Positions 23,296-44,812 of a DNA stretch of 64,000 bases are shown here, piece after piece. Origin of the DNA: an uncultured Spirochaetales bacterium (GTDB lineage Bacteria > Spirochaetota > Spirochaetia > Sphaerochaetales > Sphaerochaetaceae); contig CASFZR010000002.1 in assembly GCA_949299185.1 (NCBI GenBank), positions 4,514-68,513 of the forward strand. The letters run 5' to 3'. How positions within the stretch are numbered: the first letter of the stretch is position 1; each line of letters opens with the position of its first letter. The notes beneath the pieces were generated by a model that did no database searches, was not told where the DNA came from, and saw only the letters and a program-made list of their open reading frames with translations. The position numbers were made by a program, and so were the translations under genes.

Positions 23296-23434
23296 ACAAT
23301 CCTCCGATTAGATATTACAGTCAACTATTGTAGATTCCACTTGCCGAGTGGTCAAGGCGAAACGAAACGATGTTTCATTTTTCCTTGTCATATGATAAGA
23401 TAAACCATCAGGTTTCATAAGGAGCAGTTTGATT

Positions 23435-24397
23435 ATGACAAAAGACGAACTCTACACCTTCTTCCATGATTCTGGCATCGTTCCAGTAGTGAAGATCGAT
23501 GATGCGGAAAAGGCAGTGCCTCTCGCAAAGGCAATGATCGACGGAGGTATCAACTCAGCCGAGATCACATTCAGGACGGCGGCAGCTGAGGAAGCCATCA
23601 GGAAGGTAACCGCGGCTTATCCGGACATGATCGTCGGAGCCGGAACGGTCATCAACCCGCAGCTCGCGGAGAAGGCCGTGGCAGCCGGTGCTAAGTTCAT
23701 CGTATCCGCAGGCTTCAACAGGGAGACGGTCGAGTGGTGTCTCTCCCATAACATCCCGGTAGTTCCAGGCGTATGCACGCCGTCTGAGATCGAGATGGGT
23801 CTTTCCATGGGCCTTGATGTCCTCAAGTTCTTCCCGGCAGAGGCTTCTGGCGGTGTCGCAATGCTCAAGGACCTCTCTGGTCCGTTCTCTCAGGTAAGGT
23901 TCATGACCACCGGCGGCATCAACCCGAACAACCTCCCCGACTACGCGAAGGCTTCCAACGTCCTCGCCATCGGCGGATCCTGGATGGTGAAGGCCGATCT
24001 CATCGCCAATGAGAACTGGGCTGAGATCACGAGGCTCTGCAAGGAAGCCAATGTGAAGCTCCAGGGTCTTGAGCTTGCCCATGTTGGCATCAACCTCCCG
24101 GATGCGGATGCCGCGGCTGGCGTCGCTGACGAGTTCGCTAAGCTTGGCCTTGAGATCAAGAACGGCAATAGCTCCATCTTCATGAACAAGGAGATCGAGG
24201 TCATGAAGAAGAACTACCTCGGCAAGAACGGCCACCTCGCCTTCAGGTGCTATGATCTTGAGAGAACCGTCTACTTCCTCAAGAACAAGGGATTCACCGT
24301 CAACGAGGAGACCGTCGCATATGATGCGAAGGGCAGGATGAAGGTCTGCTATCTCAACGAGGAGATCGGCGGCTTCGCTATCCATCTCGTAAAGTAA
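23435..24397 (+). CDS. eda: KDPG/KHG aldolase fused to a C-terminal VOC (glyoxalase-like) domain
   Basis: ATG 23435 with RBS AAGGAG. Aldolase motifs GINSAEITFRT, GAGTV and VLKFFPA. About 110 extra C-terminal residues (LELAHVGINLPD...GHLAFRCYDLERTVYFLKNKGF) look VOC-like. Confidence 0.8.
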   Translation: MTKDELYTFFHDSGIVPVVKIDDAEKAVPLAKAMIDGGINSAEITFRTAAAEEAIRKVTAAYPDMIVGAGTVINPQLAEKAVAAGAKFIVSAGFNRETVEWCLSHNIPVVPGVCTPSEIEMGLSMGLDVLKFFPAEASGGVAMLKDLSGPFSQVRFMTTGGINPNNLPDYAKASNVLAIGGSWMVKADLIANENWAEITRLCKEANVKLQGLELAHVGINLPDADAAAGVADEFAKLGLEIKNGNSSIFMNKEIEVMKKNYLGKNGHLAFRCYDLERTVYFLKNKGFTVNEETVAYDAKGRMKVCYLNEEIGGFAIHLVK

Positions 24398-24420
24398 GCA
24401 TCACAGGCTTGCATAAGAAA

Positions 24421-24450
24421 AGGCTCTGCTTCGCGGCAGGGCCTTTCCTT
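24421..24450 (+). terminator. Intrinsic terminator after eda
   Basis: AGGCTCTGC / TTCGCG / GCAGGGCCT (9-bp stem with one G-U pair) followed by TTTCCTT. Confidence 0.6.
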
Positions 24451-24564
24451 ACACGAATTGCCCATTGCCTGATTAGATTGATGTATTTACTAATCAAAGG
24501 ATAATGACTGAGCAAAATCAATTGGCTCTATCATATCGACCTGTTAAGATATTCATCACAGGTA

Positions 24565-26028
24565 ATGATAATGCAGAACAATAATGACTACGATCTCATC
24601 AAGGTTATTTGTGCGCTTCCTCATGAAACAAGCTGGGTCGAACTCAAAAAGGATAACTATAAGCCAGATATGATCGGCGAGGATATCAGCGCTCTAGCAA
24701 ATAGTGCGGTAATCGCAGATCGCTCCTGCAGTTACATGATATGGGGCATCGATGATATAACACATGAAGTCATCGGTACAAATGATGATCTGCAGACTAT
24801 CAAGATAGGTAACGAAGAGCTAGAAAACTGGCTCCGGCATCAATTATCATCAAATGCTGACTTCTCAGTTCGAATGACAGATTTTGAAGGCAAGAATGTC
24901 CTCATCATCGAAATATGCAAACCTTTAGGACTGCCGGTTACATTTAAGAAAGAAGAATACATCCGAGTGGGTAGCTATACAAAGAAATTAAGAGATCTTC
25001 CAACGCTTAAAGCCCAGCTTTGGGATAAATTACGTAATACGAACTTTGAGATGCAGTATGCAAGGCAGAATCTAACCCTTACTGAAGCTTTTGGCCTTAT
25101 AGACTACTCCGTATACTTCAATCTAAGGAAGCTTACAATTCCATCTGATAATGAGGGCATTGCTCATTTCCTACTCGAAGAAGGAATCCTTGCCATTCAG
25201 GATAATGGAAAATATGCGATTACTAACTTAGGGGGGATTACATTAGCTAGGCAACTATCATCATTTCCTCGACTTGAGAGGAAAGCCCTACGACTAGTCC
25301 AATATGAAAATCAAAACAGGATGACCATGCTCAAGGAAATCGTTATCGAAAAAGGGTATGCCGTCTGTATGGAAGAAGCATTAACCTACATTTACGCAAT
25401 GACCCCGACAAAAGAAGAAATCAAAGGGCCGTATCGTGAAACCAAGTTTGCTTATCCTCCAACAGCCGTAAGGGAAGCTTTAGCAAACGCTCTTATCCAC
25501 CAAGATTTTACAATCACAGGAGCAGGACCAACTGTTGAAATCTTCAACACCAGGATTGAGATTACAAATCCCGGGGCACCATTAATTGATATATTACGCC
25601 TCATAGATAATCCTCCAAAATCAAGGAATGAAAAATTATCAACATTGATGAGACGTCTAAGTCTTTGTGAAGAACTAGGATCTGGCTGGGATAAGATAAT
25701 AATAACAACAGAAGCGATGCAGCTTCCTGCTCCCAAGATGATTCCCTACGAGACAAACACAAAAGTCATACTGTATTCAACGATCCCATTCAACATGATT
25801 CCGAAGGAAGAGAAGATCTGGGCAACATTCATGCATGCTTGCATAATGCATATCCAAGGAAATGCCATGACAAACAAGTCATTACGTGATAGATTTGGGC
25901 TCGCAAATACTGCTTCCGCCAGTATTTCAAGGCTTATAAAAGAAACTCTTAGAAAAGAACTGATCAAGCCTTTTGATGAATCGGTATCCTCAAATAGAAT
26001 GATGAAGTACATTCCATTCTATGCCTGA
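24565..26028 (+). CDS. AlbA_2 (Schlafen-like) + HATPase_c_4 + C-terminal wHTH protein (putative DNA-binding/ATP-binding regulator)
   Basis: 487 aa. N-terminus HETSWVELKKD resembles the AlbA_2 E..lEfK motif. AVREALANALIHQDF resembles HATPase_c_4. The C-terminal basic helical region is wHTH-like. Confidence 0.7.
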   Translation: MIMQNNNDYDLIKVICALPHETSWVELKKDNYKPDMIGEDISALANSAVIADRSCSYMIWGIDDITHEVIGTNDDLQTIKIGNEELENWLRHQLSSNADFSVRMTDFEGKNVLIIEICKPLGLPVTFKKEEYIRVGSYTKKLRDLPTLKAQLWDKLRNTNFEMQYARQNLTLTEAFGLIDYSVYFNLRKLTIPSDNEGIAHFLLEEGILAIQDNGKYAITNLGGITLARQLSSFPRLERKALRLVQYENQNRMTMLKEIVIEKGYAVCMEEALTYIYAMTPTKEEIKGPYRETKFAYPPTAVREALANALIHQDFTITGAGPTVEIFNTRIEITNPGAPLIDILRLIDNPPKSRNEKLSTLMRRLSLCEELGSGWDKIIITTEAMQLPAPKMIPYETNTKVILYSTIPFNMIPKEEKIWATFMHACIMHIQGNAMTNKSLRDRFGLANTASASISRLIKETLRKELIKPFDESVSSNRMMKYIPFYA

Positions 26029-26030
26029 GC

Positions 26031-26244
26031 CATTTGCTGGATATTTGCTATAGAGGCATTGAATGGTCGCGAAATCGCGAAAATCACGCTTGAAACAGGG
26101 GGTTGAATCCAGATGTACCCCTCATCTTTATTTGCTGGGTATTTGCTACTGAGGCATTGAATGATCGCGAAATCGCGAAAATCGCGCTTGAAACAGGGGT
26201 TGAATCCAGATGTACTCCTCATCTTTATTTGCTGGGTATTTGCT
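26031..26244. repeat. 97-98-bp tandem direct repeat, 2.2 copies
   Basis: Copies start at 26031, 26129 and 26226 (the third is partial). Copies 1 and 2 differ at only a handful of positions. Each copy has nested ATTTGCT x2 and TCGCGAAA x2-3 sub-repeats. The array starts 3 nt after the stop of the upstream gene. Confidence 0.9.
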
Positions 26245-26431
26245 AGCTGACAAAAGCTTATGCTACGAAAGCATCTTTTTAAGCTCTGAAATGAAGATGT
26301 TGCCTATTTTACATAACAGATTCTATTTGCTTGTTATTTGCTATTGCGTTGTGAAAACGATCGAACTAGATAATAAAATGATTCTCGGAGTATTTTCGAT
26401 TTTAGATCTCCTCATGTGTTAGTATAAGGCT

Positions 26432-27676
26432 ATGTTATCATCATTACGTCCAACCGTAGGCAACTCTAAAAAGCTGATATCCATAATTATCCTACTGATA
26501 TTACTTTACCTATGTATAGTTCTTACTATGGAGTCAAAGATCCTTTCATCCTTATCTACTGCCCGTGACATCAGGATACTCTCAATATTGACGATGGTCG
26601 TATCTGCCGCATGGCTCAGGAAAAGCAATGGATATATCGAGGGGATACTGGCCGTAGCCGGCATAATGATCATCACGCTGGTCTATTCCCTATGCTATGA
26701 GGAATCCGAAGGCATAGCCAAGGCCCTCACCTTCCTCTTCTGCCTATCGATAACCCTTAACGTATCGTGGATGCTGGCCGTCTTCTTCATACCGCTATGC
26801 ATCATCATCCAGCGCTATATGTTCTGGTTCTTCTTCCACTCTATGCCCTCGACAGGGATAACGCCCTTCCCGGATAGCAGCGAGAGCCTCCTGCTGTTCA
26901 TCCTCCTGATGCTGATAGGAATCACGTTCAACAGGCTGTACGAGGAAGCGATGATGCAGCAGGAGCTGATCGAACTGCACGGCAACACGATAAAGAAGCT
27001 GACAGCATCCAACCTGAGCTTCCTTAAGTACGCCAGCAAGATAAAGCACAAGACGCTGTCGGCGGAAAGAGCCAGGGTCACAAGGGAGCTTCATGATGTG
27101 AACGGAGGGCCGCTGATCAACATCATAGCGATGTGCGATGCCGTCCAGAGGCGTCCGCCGGAATCACAGGAGGAGCAGCTTGAGCTCTATGGGTGGATAA
27201 GGGACCAGGCATCGAAATGCCTAAGAGAGACGAGGAGCGTGCTTTACCAGCTCAGGGATCTCAATAGCTACAGGTATAGTGAGATAGACTCCCTGAAGAC
27301 CCTCATCGATACGTTCTCGCAGGCAACGGGAATCGAGATAGCATGCAACTGGGGGAACCTTGCGCGCATAAGGCTGAACGACATAAACGAATCAATATAT
27401 AAGATAATACAGGAATCCCTCATAAACTCATTCAAGCATGGTAAGGCGAGCAAGATAGAGATATCATTCTGGGCGATGGATGGTATGCTGAATATCACGA
27501 TACAGGATAACGGAAGGGGGGCACCGATGAACTATTCGAAGGGAATCGGTCAGACAGGGATGGCTGACCGGATAGCAAGGCTGAACGGAAGGATAGAATT
27601 CATATCATCACCTCTGGGATACATGACCATCGTCAATATCCCGCTAACGAAGGTTTCATTAGATGAGAAAGCTTAA
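26432..27676 (+). CDS. Membrane sensor histidine kinase, HisKA_3 (NarX/LiaS/DesK-type)
   Basis: 414 aa. About 5-6 N-terminal TM segments, H-box RVTRELHDVNGGPL, and a C-terminal HATPase (QDNGRG...GIGQTGMADR). Confidence 0.8.
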   Translation: MLSSLRPTVGNSKKLISIIILLILLYLCIVLTMESKILSSLSTARDIRILSILTMVVSAAWLRKSNGYIEGILAVAGIMIITLVYSLCYEESEGIAKALTFLFCLSITLNVSWMLAVFFIPLCIIIQRYMFWFFFHSMPSTGITPFPDSSESLLLFILLMLIGITFNRLYEEAMMQQELIELHGNTIKKLTASNLSFLKYASKIKHKTLSAERARVTRELHDVNGGPLINIIAMCDAVQRRPPESQEEQLELYGWIRDQASKCLRETRSVLYQLRDLNSYRYSEIDSLKTLIDTFSQATGIEIACNWGNLARIRLNDINESIYKIIQESLINSFKHGKASKIEISFWAMDGMLNITIQDNGRGAPMNYSKGIGQTGMADRIARLNGRIEFISSPLGYMTIVNIPLTKVSLDEKA

Positions 27677-28322
27677 CCTGCTGATCGTTGATGATCAAAA
27701 CCTGTTCGCCAAGAGCCTGAAGATCGTATTCGATGCCTATCCTGATGACTTCGAATCGATAATAGTCGCGGAGAATGGATACAAGGCCATCGATATCCTC
27801 AAGGAAGCCTCCGTGGATGTGGTCCTCATGGACGTCTGGATGCCAGAGATCGACGGCATCAAGGCCGTTTCAATGATAAGGGACTTCAACAAGACCACGA
27901 AGATCATAATGCTCTCCACGTACGGATACGATAAATACGTAAGATCAGCCCTTAAGACAGGCGCTGATGCATACCTGCTGAAGGATATATCACCTGACGA
28001 GCTGATATCATCGATAAAGAGGGTCTTCAAAGGACAGAAGATCATCTCAAGGGAGATCCTTGAGCATCAAGAAGGGAATCCCGATACGAAGAACCAGAAG
28101 CTCGATTATCCAAAGGCCCTAGACACCCTTGTCCAAAGGGAGAAGGAGATACTCGCACTGATAGGAAAGGGATACAGCAATGAGGAGATCGCTGATAAGT
28201 TATGTCTTTCCGAGCATACCGTCAGAAACTACGTAAGCTCCATAAACAGCAAGCTTGAGACAAGAAACAGATTCGAGGCCATGCGGCTGGCCATCGAATA
28301 CAACATCGGATCATTGCTCTGA
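27663..28322 (+). CDS. Response regulator, NarL/LuxR family
   Basis: 219 aa. REC domain (LLIVDDQ...VVLMDVWMPEIDG) plus a LuxR HTH (REKEILALIGKGYSNEEIADKLCLSEHTVRNYVSSI). 14-nt overlap with the kinase gene. Confidence 0.9.
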   Translation: MRKLNLLIVDDQNLFAKSLKIVFDAYPDDFESIIVAENGYKAIDILKEASVDVVLMDVWMPEIDGIKAVSMIRDFNKTTKIIMLSTYGYDKYVRSALKTGADAYLLKDISPDELISSIKRVFKGQKIISREILEHQEGNPDTKNQKLDYPKALDTLVQREKEILALIGKGYSNEEIADKLCLSEHTVRNYVSSINSKLETRNRFEAMRLAIEYNIGSLL

Positions 28323-28375
28323 AAGGAGCCGGCTCCTCCCTACGGAACACCGGCCCCACAGAAAAAGGAGCTAGA

Positions 28376-30718
28376 TCAATACACGGCCGCCACGGTCAGT
28401 ATCCTGTATGGGGCAATCTCCATCTCAAGGCTCTCATCCTTGCAGAGGAGATCTCCCCTATTGCCGTAGATATCAGACATGCGATACTCCCTGACCCCAG
28501 GCATCCGCAAGGAGAAGCGGCCCTTGGTTCCGGCCGTCTCATACAGCCTTATGGAAACGGTATCCGGAGCAACTGCCTCGACAGAGGAGACCACGACGCC
28601 GCTTCCCTTGATGATCATGCGGCTATCGACATCACCGCCGCAGCCTTCCTGTATAGAGACGCCATGGTTCACCATCTCCGCCAGCTCTGGGATCGATGCA
28701 TCGTACCAGGGGCCGGTGAAAGGAAGGATCGTCAAAGCTGTCTCCACGATTCCATGCTGGGAAGAACTTTCATCAGGATACATACCCGCATACTCCGTAT
28801 AAGGAGCCCGAACGATGGTCATATAAAGGGAACGAGGCCTGGATTCGATCCCGCAGTTTCCCGTATTGACCAGGGCAATGCCGCAATCATCGGAATCCAC
28901 GACTGAATACCTGAGGACAGGCCACTCGCCCTTTGCCGTTCCTCTCTCACGATAATACTGGCGCCTCGTGGTACCGAACGGAATCTCATTCAGCATGGAT
29001 GTGAACTCATAAGGCGTCGTGACCTTAACCCTCATCCTCGCCATCTCATATTCCCAGGGAACTGCGATCGATACCGAGACATACGGGGAGTCCTGATAAA
29101 GTCGGAGACTCATGGACCACGGCTGTCTGGAAGCCTTAAACCCTAACGCATCCTCTGGGAATTCTCCGGATATCCTCAGCTCCTGATAAACCGGAGTCCT
29201 GACCGATGACACGGTCATAGAAGATACGATCCAGTCGACCTCAGAACCAGCAGGCTCCTCTATCTGGAAATTCCCCACATCCTTCTGCATCACGAGTGAT
29301 ATGCCATAGCATCGGCCACCGGCGGCTATCGAGCAGGTCTTCCTCTCCGTATCCGCAGACACGGAGACGATGCCATTATCTATCCAATAGCGATCATCCT
29401 CCTCAAAGCATCCTGCCCCATGCTCACCGACAACGCACCTGATATCTGAGATGGAATAAGGAGGAAGCGCCTCTGCGATCTCCACCGAATCACCATACTG
29501 TACGAAGGGAACCTCCCTTCCGTTGCAAAGGACCTTCGAGATCGGGAATCCGACATCAAGCTGCATCGGGATACGCCAGCTACCGCAGTTTCCGGCAAAG
29601 ACAGAATAACGGCCAGGCTCCGGCTGAGGGCCTTGGAATAGCGCCTTCTCATACGAGTCAATCCTTGCGATCAATGAATTCACCCTTCTGATCGCATCCT
29701 GGAAGACATCATCCTGGAATGAGCCGGTTATGAGATCATGCGCCTGAAGATATCCCATGTCCCAATCGAATGTCTCCAGAAGATCGGCATCATGGGCCTT
29801 CCTGAAGAATAGCGCTACCATGGTATGCAGCTGCTGAAGCCGGCTCTCGCACTCACGATACCTCTTCCTCAGCGCGATGCGGTTCGAGAAGGTACCGGTA
29901 AACTCAGGATTCAGATCGGCATCCAGCATCGGCCATTTCCCAGAGAGGGAAAGGACGGTGTCGCAGATCGAATCAGGGGTGGCATACTCCCAAGTCCTCC
30001 TCGTTCCCGGCGCCTTACGAAGCGTCAAGGACCTGGGGGAAGGAAGCACCTCATTCTCCGTATAAGGCATGAAGAGGCGCAGGGGAAGCTCGGCCGCCCC
30101 GCAATCAGCCTCATTGAACAGCTGATCGTATTCCTTCCATCTTGATACATGCCTGAAGGAGAGCCCGTCATCCAGCACCGCAGGAGCATAGACATCGCGG
30201 CCTATCACTGGGATGACGGTGCCATCCTTTCCCTTCGCCTGAAGCATCGTGAACGGGACATTCCCGCCAAGCCTGTTCGCGAAGACATACCTATATCCGA
30301 ACTGCGCTGCCAGCTGCGGGAACTGCGCGTTCATTCCGAAGGTATCGATCAGCCAGCCGACTGTAGCCTTCTTCCCCAGCCTTCCAAGGAACCACCTCTG
30401 CCCTGCCTGTATATTCCTGACAAGGCTCTCCCCTGAGACGGTATTCGTCTCTGACGTGGATACCATGCCTCCGACGATAGACAACCTGCCGTTATCGACG
30501 AAAGGCCGCAGCCTGTCGATCAGATCAGGCCTCCTCTCATCCAGCATGCGCAGCAGATAAGCCTGCTCAAGCACATACGTGAAATCATCATGATGCTCCA
30601 GGATATCGAGAAGCCTGACGATGACGTCCTCATAGAGTTCACTCATCTCCTCAACATCCTTCTTCCACGCTATATCCACATGGGTAACGCCGATTATCCC
30701 ATTGATCTGCTTCTTCAT
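28376..30718 (-). CDS. GH38-family alpha-mannosidase-like glycoside hydrolase, cytoplasmic
   Basis: Start trimmed to MKKQING (ATG 30718, RBS AAGGAGG). GH38 N-terminal pattern THVDIAW...VGGMVSTSETNTVSGESLVRN...GWLIDTFG. No signal peptide. Confidence 0.7.
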   Translation of the reverse strand: MKKQINGIIGVTHVDIAWKKDVEEMSELYEDVIVRLLDILEHHDDFTYVLEQAYLLRMLDERRPDLIDRLRPFVDNGRLSIVGGMVSTSETNTVSGESLVRNIQAGQRWFLGRLGKKATVGWLIDTFGMNAQFPQLAAQFGYRYVFANRLGGNVPFTMLQAKGKDGTVIPVIGRDVYAPAVLDDGLSFRHVSRWKEYDQLFNEADCGAAELPLRLFMPYTENEVLPSPRSLTLRKAPGTRRTWEYATPDSICDTVLSLSGKWPMLDADLNPEFTGTFSNRIALRKRYRECESRLQQLHTMVALFFRKAHDADLLETFDWDMGYLQAHDLITGSFQDDVFQDAIRRVNSLIARIDSYEKALFQGPQPEPGRYSVFAGNCGSWRIPMQLDVGFPISKVLCNGREVPFVQYGDSVEIAEALPPYSISDIRCVVGEHGAGCFEEDDRYWIDNGIVSVSADTERKTCSIAAGGRCYGISLVMQKDVGNFQIEEPAGSEVDWIVSSMTVSSVRTPVYQELRISGEFPEDALGFKASRQPWSMSLRLYQDSPYVSVSIAVPWEYEMARMRVKVTTPYEFTSMLNEIPFGTTRRQYYRERGTAKGEWPVLRYSVVDSDDCGIALVNTGNCGIESRPRSLYMTIVRAPYTEYAGMYPDESSSQHGIVETALTILPFTGPWYDASIPELAEMVNHGVSIQEGCGGDVDSRMIIKGSGVVVSSVEAVAPDTVSIRLYETAGTKGRFSLRMPGVREYRMSDIYGNRGDLLCKDESLEMEIAPYRILTVAAVY

Positions 30719-44249: not shown

Positions 44250-44337
44250 GGAGAGATGTCCGAGTGGTTTAAGGTAGCTGCCTTGAAAGCAGCCGTGGCG
44301 CAAGTCACCGGGGGTTCGAATCCCTCTCTCTCCGCCA
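44250..44337 (+). tRNA. tRNA-Ser (anticodon UGA), CCA encoded
   Basis: Hand-folded. Acceptor GGAGAGA/TCTCTCC, anticodon stem GCTGC/GCAGC with loop CTTGAAA, long variable arm, T-loop GGTTCGAATCC. Confidence 0.9.
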
Positions 44338-44346
44338 TATTAGATT

Positions 44347-44436
44347 GGAGAGGTGCGAGAGAGGCCGAATCGGGCTCCCTGCTAAGGAGTTGACCTGGCA
44401 AACCCGGGTCCGGGGGTTCGAATCCCCCCCTCTCCG
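44347..44436 (+). tRNA. tRNA-Ser (anticodon GCU)
   Basis: Acceptor GGAGAGG/CCTCTCC, anticodon loop CTGCTAA, long variable arm, T-loop GGTTCGAATCC. Confidence 0.9.
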
Positions 44437-44441
44437 ATGAT

Positions 44442-44515
44442 GAGACCATAGCTCAGCTGGATAGAGCATCAGTTTGCGGAACTGAGGGTCGGAGGTTCGA
44501 ATCCTCTTGGTCTCG
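44442..44515 (+). tRNA. tRNA-Arg (anticodon GCG)
   Basis: Acceptor GAGACCA/TGGTCTC, D-arm GCTCAGCTGGATAGAGC, anticodon stem TCAGT/ACTGA with loop TTGCGGA, T-arm GGAGGTTCGAATCCTCT. Confidence 0.85.
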
Positions 44516-44523
44516 TACGCTTT

Positions 44524-44611
44524 GGAGAGATGTCCGAGTGGTCGAAGGAGCCGGACTCGAAATCCGGTGTAGTGCTCTGCATTACCGAGGGTTCGAATCC
44601 CTCTCTCTCCG
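44524..44611 (+). tRNA. tRNA-Ser (anticodon CGA)
   Basis: Acceptor GGAGAGA/TCTCTCC, anticodon stem CCGGA/TCCGG with loop CTCGAAA, long variable arm. Confidence 0.9.
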
Positions 44612-44622
44612 AATGACGCCCT

Positions 44623-44708
44623 GGAGAGGTGTCCGAGTGGTCGAAGGTGCACGATTGGAAGTCGTGTATGGTCAAAAGCCATCGGGGGTTCGAATCCCCC
44701 CCTCTCCG
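44623..44708 (+). tRNA. tRNA-Ser (anticodon GGA)
   Basis: Acceptor GGAGAGG/CCTCTCC, anticodon stem CACGA/TCGTG with loop TTGGAAG, long variable arm. Confidence 0.9.
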
Positions 44709-44712
44709 TATT

Positions 44713-44812
44713 CAGCAGCAGATCCCCGGCAATGAGCGCCGCCCAACCCCGTCAGGACAGGAATGTAGCAGCGGTAAGCGGTAAGCCATGTGACCGGGAC
44801 CATTTGCTGCTG
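44713..44812 (+). ncRNA. ffs: Signal recognition particle RNA, small (4.5S) type
   Basis: 100-nt rod. CAGCAGCA (44713-44720) pairs with TGCTGCTG (44805-44812), and CCCGG pairs with CCGGG. The apical GTCAGGACA-GGAA-TGTAGCAGC matches the conserved domain IV pattern (E. coli GUCAGGUCC-GGAA-GGAAGCAGC). Followed by TTTTCATTTT. Position upstream of dnaX-ybaB-recR as in Bacillus. Confidence 0.8.

What the first reader, a model, noticed from the sequence alone, without database searches (positions are those of the whole stretch)
26031..26341. Four phased pairs of ATTTGCT heptamers (about 98-bp period) embedded in a 98-bp tandem repeat upstream of the two-component operon
The pair ATTTGCT-N4-ATTTGCT (11-bp centre-to-centre spacing, about one helical turn) occurs at 26031/26042, 26129/26140, 26226/26237 and 26324/26335. 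The pairs are spaced 98, 97 and 98 bp apart.

The first 2.2 periods are a near-identical 98-bp tandem duplication. This also contains TCGCGAAA-TCGCGAAAA-TC(A/G)CG sub-repeats and a TTGAAA-17-TGTAC(C/T) promoter-like element.

The fourth heptamer pair keeps the phase even though the intervening sequence has diverged. That argues for selection on the heptamers and their spacing.

It is the largest non-coding gap in the window. Candidate roles are cooperative binding sites for the adjacent LuxR-type regulator or for the AlbA_2/wHTH protein, a repeated promoter, or a structured RNA.
Basis: seen in the sequence. Interest (0 to 1): 0.6.

Follow-up and report, generated by a model that had tools for sequence, protein, structure and literature searches.

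The report
Docking-site arrays of a bacterial Schlafen gene
The four ATTTGCT pairs are real, but they belong to the Schlafen-type nuclease/ATPase/DNA-binding gene that ends 3 bp upstream, not to the two-component operon. They are most likely that protein's own docking sites, a gene-plus-site pairing found in about a hundred relatives that I did not find described in the literature searched.

Summary
ATTTGCT-N4-ATTTGCT sits at 26032, 26130, 26227 and 26325. These are the only four copies in the 2.2-Mb genome.

The array travels with the upstream gene 24565..26028, which encodes a Schlafen/AlbA_2 + GHKL ATPase + C-terminal winged helix protein.
- A sister strain has the same eda and HK-RR genes but neither this gene nor any heptamer.
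- Another strain has five pairs instead of four.
- 78 of 80 metagenome homologues (54-59% identical), and relatives in the same genus, carry pair-spacer-pair arrays. In 76 of the 80 the array starts 2-4 nt after the stop codon, whatever lies downstream.

Three results point to protein binding on DNA.
- The first three bases of the heptamer change in step with three residues of the protein's wing, in at least two independent lineages.
- Pair-to-pair distances fall into classes one helical turn apart (period 10.5 bp).
- Spacers carry A/T tracts in the same phase.

This fits looped or wrapped DNA, not RNA or a promoter. The physiological role is inferred: self-tethering or self-control of a defence-type nuclease.

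The scan has reported the same gene-plus-array pairing before on other DNA. I found no published description.

The parts
24451..26431 (+). Accessory cassette: Schlafen gene with its upstream region, the heptamer arrays and 89 bp of trailing sequence. It is about 40% G+C in a 54% G+C genome.
   Evidence: Sister-strain contig L185 aligns to window 23491-24450 (90%) and 26432-29500 (83%). It has an unrelated 69 bp in place of these 1981 bp. G+C profile. The true right edge may lie near 26405, because the last ~20 bp resemble the sister strain's HK -10 region (by eye).
24565..26028 (+). Gene for a 487-aa Schlafen/AlbA_2 nuclease-like domain + internal winged helix + GHKL ATPase (HATPase_c_4) + C-terminal winged helix-turn-helix. 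This is the 'Schlatpase-HTH' / pSlfn-HisKinase-HTH / COG2865 type.
   Evidence: Pfam PF04326 (1.5e-14) and PF13749 (1.3e-17). AF2 model: pLDDT 86, C-terminal H414-430, H437-444, H448-463 and wing 467-484. Foldseek: 3LMM at E 1e-20 and SLFN11/12/13/14 N-domains. E21, E26, K28 and D64 are invariant in 37 homologues.
26032..26049 (+). Heptamer pair 1 (ATTTGCT GGAT ATTTGCT). It starts 3 nt after the stop codon.
   Evidence: The same position after the stop is seen in 76 of 80 metagenome homologues and in the genus relatives.
26050..26129 (+). Spacer 1 (80 bp). It holds the TCGCGAAA sub-repeats and TTGAAA/TTGAAT boxes, which together form A/T tracts about every 10.75 bp.
   Evidence: Fourier analysis of A/T content: best period 10.75 bp, P = 0.001 against shuffles.
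26130..26147 (+). Heptamer pair 2 (ATTTGCT GGGT ATTTGCT).
26148..26226 (+). Spacer 2 (79 bp), the tandem copy of spacer 1.
   Evidence: TRF: 98-bp unit x 2.3. Copies are 93-98% identical.
26227..26244 (+). Heptamer pair 3 (ATTTGCT GGGT ATTTGCT).
26245..26324 (+). Spacer 3 (80 bp). Its sequence is unrelated to spacers 1 and 2 but its length is the same. It shows no significant A/T periodicity.
   Evidence: P = 0.69.
26325..26342 (+). Heptamer pair 4 (ATTTGCT TGTT ATTTGCT).
   Evidence: The sister strain L186 has ATTTGCC in the second unit.
26343..26431 (+). Trailing 89 bp before the histidine-kinase start. It holds weak promoter-like elements: GTGAAA-17-TAAAAT at 26351-26379, and an extended -10-like TGT-TAGTAT at 26417-25 that ends 6 nt before the ATG.
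   Evidence: Promoter scan. The second element was read by eye and matches TGT-TAAAAT + 6 nt + ATG in sister strain L185. Both are inference only.
26432..28322 (+). HisKA_3 histidine kinase (26432..27676) and NarL/LuxR-type response regulator (27663..28322). These are neighbours and not part of the module.
   Evidence: Pfam. The operon exists without arrays in L185. No close orthologue was found in 80 genomes of the genus.

Best explanation
The four heptamer pairs are the cognate DNA docking sites of the protein encoded immediately upstream, a Schlafen-nuclease/GHKL-ATPase protein with a C-terminal winged helix-turn-helix. Gene and sites form one inherited cassette.

Binding (inferred from comparison, not from a binding assay). 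Each 7+4+7 pair takes two winged-helix domains head to tail. The recognition helix reads the conserved TTGC core. The wing (window residues ~474-476, S-N-R) reads the first three bases (T/C-A-T).

Looping (inferred). Pairs lie on one face of the helix, a whole number of turns apart, and the spacers carry phased A/T tracts. An oligomer therefore probably holds two pairs at once and loops or wraps the spacer. The oligomer is probably the ATP-dependent tetramer shown for a related Schlatpase. The ancestral unit is pair-spacer-pair, that is four heptamers. Here a 98-bp tandem duplication has expanded it to four pairs, and to five in a sister strain.

Role (inferred, least certain). The array is a cis-acting platform that tethers and buffers the nuclease next to its own gene. 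It may also act as a roadblock between the cassette and its neighbours. In a sister clade a second copy overlaps the gene's own -35 box, so that clade is likely autoregulated. This clade has no upstream copy.
For: 1. Linkage to the gene.
- The array follows the stop codon of homologues in the genus, with different downstream genes.
- It does so in Firmicute-type contigs.
- It does so in 78 of 80 metagenome homologues. In 76 of the 80 the first unit starts 2-4 nt after the stop.
- In 34 non-redundant loci the downstream neighbour is on the same strand in 21 and convergent in 13.

2. Natural indel. Strain L185 has eda and HK-RR but neither the gene nor any heptamer.

3. Exclusivity.
- The genome has only these four pairs.
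- Across 81 genomes of the genus, the A-type pattern gives 37 hits against 2 for the reversed control, and 25 of the 37 lie at intact or decayed Schlafen 3' ends.
- The B-type pattern gives 26 hits against 0 for the control, 24 of them flanking B-type genes.

4. Covariation.
- Clade B (helix NSAVVSR, wing GAKARR) goes with TTGTTTGAY.
- Wing SN[KR] goes with YATTTGC, wing APR with AACTTGC, and wing ARR with AATTTGC.
- A YAT/SNK subclade is nested inside the AAC/APR clade (support 0.93-0.998). This holds for the N-terminal 400 residues too (73% against 55% identity), so it is not a domain swap from the basal clade.

5. DNA geometry.
- In 41 non-redundant spacers the unit-to-unit distances fall only in 64-67, 86-88, 96-98 and 106-108 bp. 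Rayleigh R = 0.88 at period 10.5, P < 5e-5.
- Spacer A/T content is periodic at 10.5 bp, in register with the pairs, P < 1/3000.
- The window's own 80-bp spacer has a 10.75-bp A/T period, P = 0.001.

6. Protein. The AF2 model shows a C-terminal winged helix. ATP-driven tetramers of the Schlafen-GHKL module are reported in bioRxiv 10.64898/2026.05.29.728809.

7. Clade B promoter. In 7 of 9 loci the last upstream unit reads TTGACA, with a -10-like hexamer 16-17 bp on that ends 6-7 nt before the ATG.
Against:
- In this clade no site overlaps the gene's own promoter, so classical autorepression is not supported here and the role of a 3'-flank site is unexplained.
- Some intact homologues lack arrays (L016, L208/L210), so the array is not indispensable.
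- One relative (L174) alternates 76- and 82-bp distances, and the 82 is out of phase.
- The window's diverged third spacer shows no A/T periodicity.
- The 41 'non-redundant' spacers are still relatives, so the P values overstate independence.
- Array-like modules also occur in prophage regions without a Schlafen gene. Another binder or another function is therefore possible.
Confidence: 0.72

Rival explanations
1. The pairs are cooperative binding sites of the adjacent NarL/LuxR-type response regulator (27663..28322) and control the two-component operon.
For: Position only: pair 4 lies 89 bp upstream of the kinase start, and a weak promoter-like site follows it.
Against: - Sister strain L185 has the same HK-RR operon (83-87% identical) at the same locus with no heptamer.
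- About a hundred homologous arrays have no two-component genes downstream.
- The distant HK homologues in the genus lie on contigs without pattern hits.
- NarL-type GerE domains typically read inverted 7-2-7 heptamers, not head-to-tail 7-4-7 repeats (my own knowledge).
Confidence: 0.03
2. The 98-bp unit is a repeated promoter (or promoter plus terminator) module that drives or insulates transcription. The heptamers are incidental to it.
For: - In clade B the upstream copy of the module does contain the gene's likely promoter.
- The insertion pushed the kinase gene away from the eda terminator, so some promoter must lie in or after the array.
Against: - Only the heptamers, a T-run before them and their phase are conserved between relatives; spacers are unrelated in sequence.
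- The promoter scan finds no more sites than in shuffled sequence and none in the repeat unit. No intrinsic terminator lies in 26029-26431.
- Downstream genes lie in either orientation.
Confidence: 0.07
3. The repeats act as RNA: a structured 3'-UTR element or small RNA, possibly bound by the Schlafen RNA-binding domain.
For: - The array starts right after the stop codon, so it is probably transcribed.
- In one relative a terminator follows the second pair.
- Schlafen domains bind and cut RNA (PMC13056530).
Against: - MFE z-scores are -0.06 and -0.03 on the two strands.
- There is no Rfam match at E <= 10.
- An 11-bp unit spacing, 10.5-bp distance classes and phased A/T tracts are properties of the DNA helix.
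- In clade B the upstream copy lies at or before the -35 box, so it would not be transcribed from that promoter.
Confidence: 0.05
4. The arrays are recombination or mobility sites (integrase arm-type sites, or cassette ends). They mark a mobile single-gene cassette rather than a binding site of its own protein.
For: - The gene plus arrays is a clean 1981-bp indel of low G+C.
- Clade B genes are bracketed by about 100-bp direct copies of the module.
- Related modules occur in prophage regions and beside a tyrosine integrase gene.
- Copy number varies between strains.
Against: - No recombinase lies in or next to the cassette in the loci examined.
- There are no flanking direct repeats at the window's cassette borders.
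- Wing-to-motif covariation ties the sequence to the Schlafen protein itself.
- Strict helical phasing and the fixed start after the stop codon are not expected of att sites.
Confidence: 0.08
5. Replication iterons or a parC-like centromere of a plasmid or phage remnant.
For: - 11-bp direct repeats in two clusters recall the parC site of plasmid R1 (my own knowledge).
- In IMG/VR contigs, similar ATTTGCTGG tandem arrays lie inside replication-initiator-like genes.
Against: - The contexts are chromosomal, with no rep or par genes.
- The IMG/VR hits have no Schlafen gene nearby. They are about as many as I estimate chance plus unrelated iterons would give for a 16-base pattern in 2.9 million contigs; that is my estimate, not a tool result.
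Confidence: 0.02

Closest known systems
Prokaryotic Schlafen proteins of the 'HisKinase-HTH' composition (Taboada et al., Nat Microbiol 2026, PMC13056530), also called Schlatpase-HTH proteins (bioRxiv 10.64898/2026.05.29.728809); COG2865; PDB 3LMM
   Same: - Same domain order: SLFN_AlbA_2, GHKL ATPase, C-terminal HTH.
- This class makes up 19.2% of 5,930 prokaryotic Schlafens.
- More than 90% of Schlatpase C-terminal tails are HTH, and the GHKL module drives ATP-dependent tetramers in RzAgo.
   Different: Neither paper mentions DNA sites, repeats or operators next to these genes. The HisKinase-HTH class was not among the domain architectures chosen for testing in PMC13056530. Defence activity of this particular protein is untested.
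DNA-looping operator pairs (lac O1-O3, gal OE-OI, ara O2-I1, lambda OL-OR); my own knowledge
   Same: Two or more separated sites for one oligomeric protein. Function depends on an integral number of helical turns between them, with an in-vivo period near 11 bp. Spacers bend easily.
   Different: Those operators flank or overlap the regulated promoter. Here the whole array lies after the stop codon of the binder's own gene and no promoter overlap is seen in this clade. The sites are head-to-tail direct repeats, not palindromes.
Pho box / OmpR-PhoB-type winged-helix sites (7-bp direct repeats with a 4-bp spacer); my own knowledge
   Same: The same 7+4+7 geometry, with head-to-tail binding of two winged-helix domains one turn apart.
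   Different: The binder proposed here has no receiver domain and belongs to another family. The motif differs.
Iteron and centromere arrays (plasmid R1 parC: two clusters of 11-bp direct repeats bound by ParR); my own knowledge
   Same: Clusters of 11-bp direct repeats on one DNA face, bound cooperatively into a wrapped complex. Copy number varies.
   Different: No partition or replication genes are present. The context is chromosomal and the binder is a nuclease-ATPase.
Earlier reports of this scan on other genomes (e1-2220888, e1-2525062, e1-2685348, e1-1976455, e1-4165349, e1-748255, e1-1396979)
   Same: The same family of genes, flanked by phased short-repeat arrays whose motif changes with the protein. 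Those reports also read the arrays as the protein's own sites.
   Different: - Those cases mostly have arrays on both sides of the gene or over the promoter. This clade has them only after the stop codon.
- Not stated in the summaries of those reports shown: the natural indel, the copy-number difference between strains, the 10.5-bp distance classes with phased A/T tracts, and the wing-to-triplet covariation with an independent reversal.

Membership tests
Schlatpase-HTH / pSlfn-HisKinase-HTH proteins (the gene 24565..26028) | N-terminal SLFN_AlbA_2 domain | tested here: met
   PF04326 at E 1.5e-14, residues 21-142. Foldseek matches SLFN11/12/13/14 N-domains and 2KYY.
Schlatpase-HTH / pSlfn-HisKinase-HTH proteins (the gene 24565..26028) | GHKL-type ATPase (HATPase_c_4) following the Schlafen domain | tested here: met
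   PF13749 at E 1.3e-17, residues 319-403. Histidine-kinase CA domains appear among the fold matches. E304, N308, G372 and G374 are invariant.
Schlatpase-HTH / pSlfn-HisKinase-HTH proteins (the gene 24565..26028) | C-terminal helix-turn-helix | tested here: met
   AF2 model: three helices (414-430, 437-444, 448-463) plus a beta wing (467-484), pLDDT about 86-93.
Schlatpase-HTH / pSlfn-HisKinase-HTH proteins (the gene 24565..26028) | Acidic catalytic residues of the Schlafen nuclease | tested here: inconclusive
   E21, E26, K28 and D64 are invariant in 37 homologues. Their equivalence to E15/D20 of RorSlfn5 was not checked by superposition.
Schlatpase-HTH / pSlfn-HisKinase-HTH proteins (the gene 24565..26028) | Anti-phage defence activity | not testable with these tools
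   PADLOC gives only weak partial hits, at E about 1e-5. There is no experiment.
Looping operator arrays of an autoregulated gene | Sites are bound by the product of the adjacent gene | not testable with these tools
   Supported indirectly by linkage, exclusivity and wing-to-motif covariation.
Looping operator arrays of an autoregulated gene | Separated sites lie an integral number of helical turns apart | tested here: met
   Distance classes 64-67, 86-88, 96-98 and 106-108 bp; R = 0.88 at period 10.5; P < 5e-5. The window's distances are 87, 86 and 87 bp.
Looping operator arrays of an autoregulated gene | A site overlaps the promoter of the regulated gene | tested here: not met
   No heptamer pair lies upstream of the window gene, nor upstream in 79 of 80 homologues. 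The feature is met only in sister clade B: TTGACA in the last unit, in 7 of 9 loci.
NarL/LuxR response-regulator operator | Sites co-occur with the regulator across relatives | tested here: not met
   The HK-RR operon occurs without sites in L185. Sites occur without HK-RR in about 100 loci.
Plasmid/phage iterons or parC-type centromere | Adjacent rep or par gene | tested here: not met
   The neighbours are eda, HK-RR and GH38 here, and varied metabolic genes elsewhere.
Known RNA families (Rfam 15) / structured RNA | Covariance-model match, or folding energy better than shuffles | tested here: not met
   No match at E <= 10 in 24000-28000. Folding z = -0.06 and -0.03.
CRISPR array | Repeats of 23-55 bp with unique spacers of similar length, and cas genes nearby | tested here: not met
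   The repeat is an 18-bp pair. Spacers are about 80 bp and two of them are copies of each other. No cas gene lies in the flanks.

The most novel reading that the evidence does not exclude
The array is a built-in 'self-DNA docking station' that holds a Schlafen tRNase-type immune effector in a looped, inactive complex beside its own gene. Copies of the same array on invading DNA would then act as triggers or decoys that pull the protein off.

What prompts this reading: prophage early regions of the same genus carry homologous modules. One of them combines A-type and B-type units in a genome that encodes both protein types.

If true, the C-terminal winged helix would be a sequence-specific sensor of foreign DNA whose specificity can be read from the gene's own 3' flank.
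Probability: 0.12. Interest if true: 0.85.

Novelty: new variant of a known kind. Interest (0 to 1): 0.64.

Why it matters
Schlafen-GHKL-HTH proteins are among the commonest prokaryotic Schlafens. They make up 19% of 5,930 in one census, and most of about 60,000 Schlatpase proteins in another. No ligand or function is known for them.

If the arrays are their binding sites, the DNA ligand of any family member can be read directly from the sequence just after its stop codon. A specificity code can be tested by simple swaps: wing S-N-[KR] for YAT, A-P-R for AAC.

The 10.5-bp distance classes predict a looped or wrapped complex that could be seen by EMSA, AFM or cryo-EM.

For annotation, it shows that a striking repeat in front of an operon can belong to the gene behind it.

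Tried and rejected
- Rfam at E <= 10 over 24000-28000, and at gathering threshold over the whole window: nothing in the region.
- RNA folding of both strands: z about 0.
- Promoter/terminator scan: no more sites than in shuffles, none inside the 98-bp unit, and no terminator.
- Flanking direct repeats at the cassette borders: none convincing. There is a 29-nt, 72% match at 24379 and 24534, and single inverted heptamers inside the gene at 24697-24703 (in the invariant A-L-A-N codons) and near 25899. I judged these to be chance.
- The search for related loci on genome contigs with the single protein gave one locus only. The genome search and the metagenome scan were far more productive.
- IMG/VR scan for ATTTGCTGGNNATTTGCT: 73 contigs.
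  - Several are true 11-bp tandem arrays, some inside replication-initiator-like genes.
  - None has a Schlafen homologue nearby, and the number is close to what I estimate chance plus unrelated iterons would give. I draw no inference from them.
- Histidine-kinase orthologues in the genus: none closer than 36% identity, so no test of regulator-site co-occurrence was possible there. The two strain-level contigs settled the question instead.
- Sequence search of the PDB: only a marginal 3LMM hit. Fold search was needed.
- CRISPR, parC/iteron and NarL-box readings were considered and rejected (see the membership tests).

Full report
**1. The observation**

The pattern ATTTGCT-N4-ATTTGCT occurs four times in the window, at 26032, 26130, 26227 and 26325, all on the + strand. 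Spacings of 98, 97 and 98 bp are correct. So are the 98-bp tandem unit (x 2.3, 26032-26257) and the TCGCGAAA sub-repeats.

Chance expectation is 0.02 per window. The whole 2.2-Mb assembly has only these four copies, even with one mismatch, and none of the reversed control. The heptamer itself is not over-represented. Only the 11-bp pairing is unusual.

**2. Which gene the array belongs to**

The array starts 3 nt after the stop codon of gene 24565..26028. This 487-aa protein has a Schlafen/AlbA_2 domain and a GHKL ATPase domain. The stretch is about 40% G+C in a 54% G+C genome.

A DNA search of relatives found the heptamers after the homologous gene in two other genomes of the genus, with different downstream genes.

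A protein search of 81 genomes of the genus gave two clades.
- Clade A is 58-74% identical to the window protein. It carries (C/T)ATTTGCTGG units in 11-bp tandem right after the stop, followed by 57-80-bp spacers and further clusters. It has nothing upstream.
- Clade B is 33-39% identical. It carries TTGTTTGAY units in a unit-spacer-array module both before the start and after the stop. The two copies within a locus are nearly identical.

Pattern searches across the genus gave the following.
- A-type: 37 hits against 2 for the reversed control. 25 of the 37 lie at intact, decayed or IS-truncated Schlafen 3' ends.
- B-type: 26 hits against 0 for the control. 24 of them flank B-type genes.

**3. 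Two strain-level contigs**

Two contigs settle the relation to the two-component operon.
- L185 has a kinase 87% identical. It aligns with window 23491-24450 and 26432-29500. Between these it has an unrelated 69 bp where the window has 1981 bp (24451-26431). It has no Schlafen gene and no heptamer.
- L186 is 98-99% identical with the same gene order. It has five pairs instead of four, one of them with a 48-bp spacer.

The array therefore came with the Schlafen gene, and its copy number varies between strains. The kinase has no close orthologue elsewhere in the genus.

**4. Breadth**

The protein family is very large: at least 7,920 hits at E <= 1e-10. Contigs of 55-63% homologues, some from Oscillospiraceae-type contexts, show the same layout.

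A metagenome scan returned 80 loci at 54-59% identity.
- 78 have at least one pair.
- 76 have two or more clusters, usually 2 + 2 units.
- In 76 the first unit starts 2-4 nt after the stop.
- 79 have nothing upstream.

In 34 non-redundant loci with a scorable downstream gene, that gene is on the same strand in 21 and convergent in 13, at varied distances.

**5. Evidence that the sites work as DNA and bind the protein's winged helix**

(a) Structure. The AF2 model (pLDDT 86, pTM 0.76) ends in three helices and a beta wing, residues 414-484. Foldseek puts the whole chain with 3LMM and the N-domain with the human and pig Schlafen nuclease domains.

(b) Covariation. The motif tracks the C-terminal domain.
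- Helix NSAVVSR with wing GAKARR goes with TTGTTTGAY.
- Within clade A the helix is nearly constant (SxSxSISRLIK) and so is the TTGC core.
- Wing S-N-[KR] goes with (T/C)AT.
- Wing A-P-R goes with AAC.
- Wing A-R-R goes with AAT.

On a tree rooted with clade B, a YAT/SNK group of four is nested inside the AAC/APR clade (support 0.93-0.998). Its N-terminal 400 residues also group there (73% against 55% identity). The change of wing and of DNA triplet therefore happened together at least twice.

(c) Distances. In 41 non-redundant spacers, the distance from the last unit of one pair to the first unit of the next falls only in 64-67, 86-88, 96-98 or 106-108 bp. Rayleigh R is 0.88 at a period of 10.5 bp, with P < 5e-5 against uniform distances. 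The window's 87, 86 and 87 bp fit this scheme.

(d) Spacer composition. The spacers are unrelated in sequence between subfamilies, yet their A/T content is periodic at 10.5 bp in register with the pairs (P < 1/3000). The window's own 80-bp spacer has a 10.75-bp A/T period (P = 0.001).

These are properties of bent or looped double-stranded DNA. The relatives are not independent, so the P values are upper bounds on significance.

**6. What was excluded**

- There is no Rfam match and no folding signal on either strand.
- There is no promoter or terminator consensus in the unit.
- There are no att-like repeats at the cassette borders.
- No recombinase, rep or par gene lies nearby.
- The response-regulator reading fails the co-occurrence test in both directions (section 3).

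**7. Mechanism: shown and inferred**

Shown by comparison:
- The array is inherited with the gene.
- It is exclusive to it in this genome.
- It co-varies with the wing of the C-terminal domain.
- It obeys helical phasing.

Inferred:
- Two winged helices bind each 7+4+7 pair head to tail, in a Pho-box-like geometry.
- An oligomer bridges two pairs and loops or wraps the spacer. The usual 2 + 2 = 4 heptamers would match the ATP-dependent tetramer reported for a related Schlafen-GHKL module.

Least certain is the purpose.
- In clade B the last upstream unit reads TTGACA, with a -10-like hexamer 16-17 bp on that ends 6-7 nt before the ATG, in 7 of 9 loci. This suggests autorepression of a leaderless transcript.
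- The window's clade has no upstream site. I therefore favour a cis-acting tether or buffer for a potentially toxic nuclease, perhaps doubling as a roadblock towards the neighbouring operon. The 98-bp duplication would enlarge that buffer.

**8. What is known**

PMC13056530 classifies pSlfn-HisKinase-HTH as 19.2% of prokaryotic Schlafens. The systems it chose for phage-defence tests did not include this HisKinase-HTH class. The 2026 preprint defines the Schlatpase supradomain and its tetramers. Neither mentions flanking repeats. A full-text search for Schlafen with helix-turn-helix, bacterial and direct repeats found nothing.

This scan has reported the same pairing before on other genomes. 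I reached it here independently before reading those notes. They supplied the two paper leads.

**9. Verdict**

This is a real, non-random feature.

It is a new variant of a known kind: looping operator or iteron arrays. The variant is attached to an abundant, uncharacterised defence-type protein family and sits in an unusual place, directly after the stop codon.

Noticed in passing
L053 (G071:C61), L054 (G023:C13), L049 (G009:C29), L058 (G094:C118), L055 (G008:C59): Prophage-like early regions (RusA, C5 DNA methyltransferase, phrog_3657, phrog_774) carry unit-spacer-array modules homologous to the Schlafen modules. L053 is 85-87% identical over about 100 bp to the L027 module.

The modules lie in the opposite orientation to the phage genes, and the first unit abuts the RBS and ATG of a small gene. 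L053 and L054 are hybrids: a B-type unit and spacer followed by A-type units. G071 encodes both an A-type and a B-type protein; the other four genomes lack the matching A-type protein. Unit-to-pair distances are 66-68 and 89-90 bp.
   Followed up: partly
L021-L027, L038 (clade B loci of the genus): Clade B Schlafen genes are bracketed by two near-identical direct copies of a module of about 100 bp. The last upstream unit supplies a TTGACA -35 box. A -10-like hexamer ends 6-7 nt before the ATG, which suggests leaderless mRNAs.
   Followed up: partly
window 26417-26434 and L185 ~1008-1032: The histidine-kinase gene is preceded by an extended -10-like TGT-TAGTAT (TGT-TAAAAT in the sister strain) that ends 6 nt before the ATG. 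The kinase may therefore also be translated from a leaderless transcript and may keep its own promoter despite the insertion.
   Followed up: no
L069 (G071:C119), L044 (G046:C1), L048 (G053:C43), L050 (G065:C1), L018 (G069:C2): Decayed Schlafen genes keep their arrays. The genes are IS-truncated, frameshifted, or carry an in-frame stop. L069 has four 97-bp tandem modules. The arrays outlive the gene.
   Followed up: partly
L171/L173 (ENA contigs), about 215 bp upstream of the gene and about 40 bp after the second pair: The whole cassette is flanked by a direct repeat of about 45 bp that is an intrinsic terminator (AAAAGGGATCGGGTTTTGCCGGAAAGCAGAATCCGATCCTTTTT). This looks like a footprint of how such cassettes are inserted after a neighbour's terminator.
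   Followed up: no
L174/L175 3955-4887: A 63%-identical homologue lies next to a DNA2/Upf1-like helicase, DUF4417 and EndoU genes. It is followed by about 930 bp holding at least six CATTTGCTGGTCATTTGCT pairs with two alternating spacer types (distances 87 and 93 bp). This is the largest expansion seen and the one case that breaks the helical phase.
   Followed up: partly
L062/L046 (G051:C4 110805 and 112599-112627): A-type arrays in inverted orientation lie 1.8 kb apart, next to a tyrosine integrase gene and a CopG/RHH-like repressor gene. No Schlafen gene was found there.
   Followed up: no
L056 (G016:C84), L057 (G092:C18): Other 11-bp tandem arrays were found. CTTATTTGCCC x5 lies beside a distant Schlafen-GHKL homologue. 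CATTTGCTAT units lie upstream of a replication-initiator-like gene (phrog_3926).
   Followed up: no
window 24697-24703 (- strand unit AGCAAAT) and L017 at the same place: A single inverted heptamer lies inside the gene, in the codons of the invariant A-L-A-N motif. It is also present at the equivalent position in the 58%-identical L017 gene. It may be chance: about 0.05 copies are expected per gene.
   Followed up: no
window 44250-44812: Four tRNA genes and the small SRP RNA lie in the window's longest ORF-free stretch.
   Followed up: no
window 23429-24397 and L185 2-907: The KDPG aldolase carries a C-terminal extension of about 110 residues that is conserved in the sister strain. The gene's terminator hairpin (about 24421-24450) marks the left edge of the inserted cassette.
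   Followed up: no
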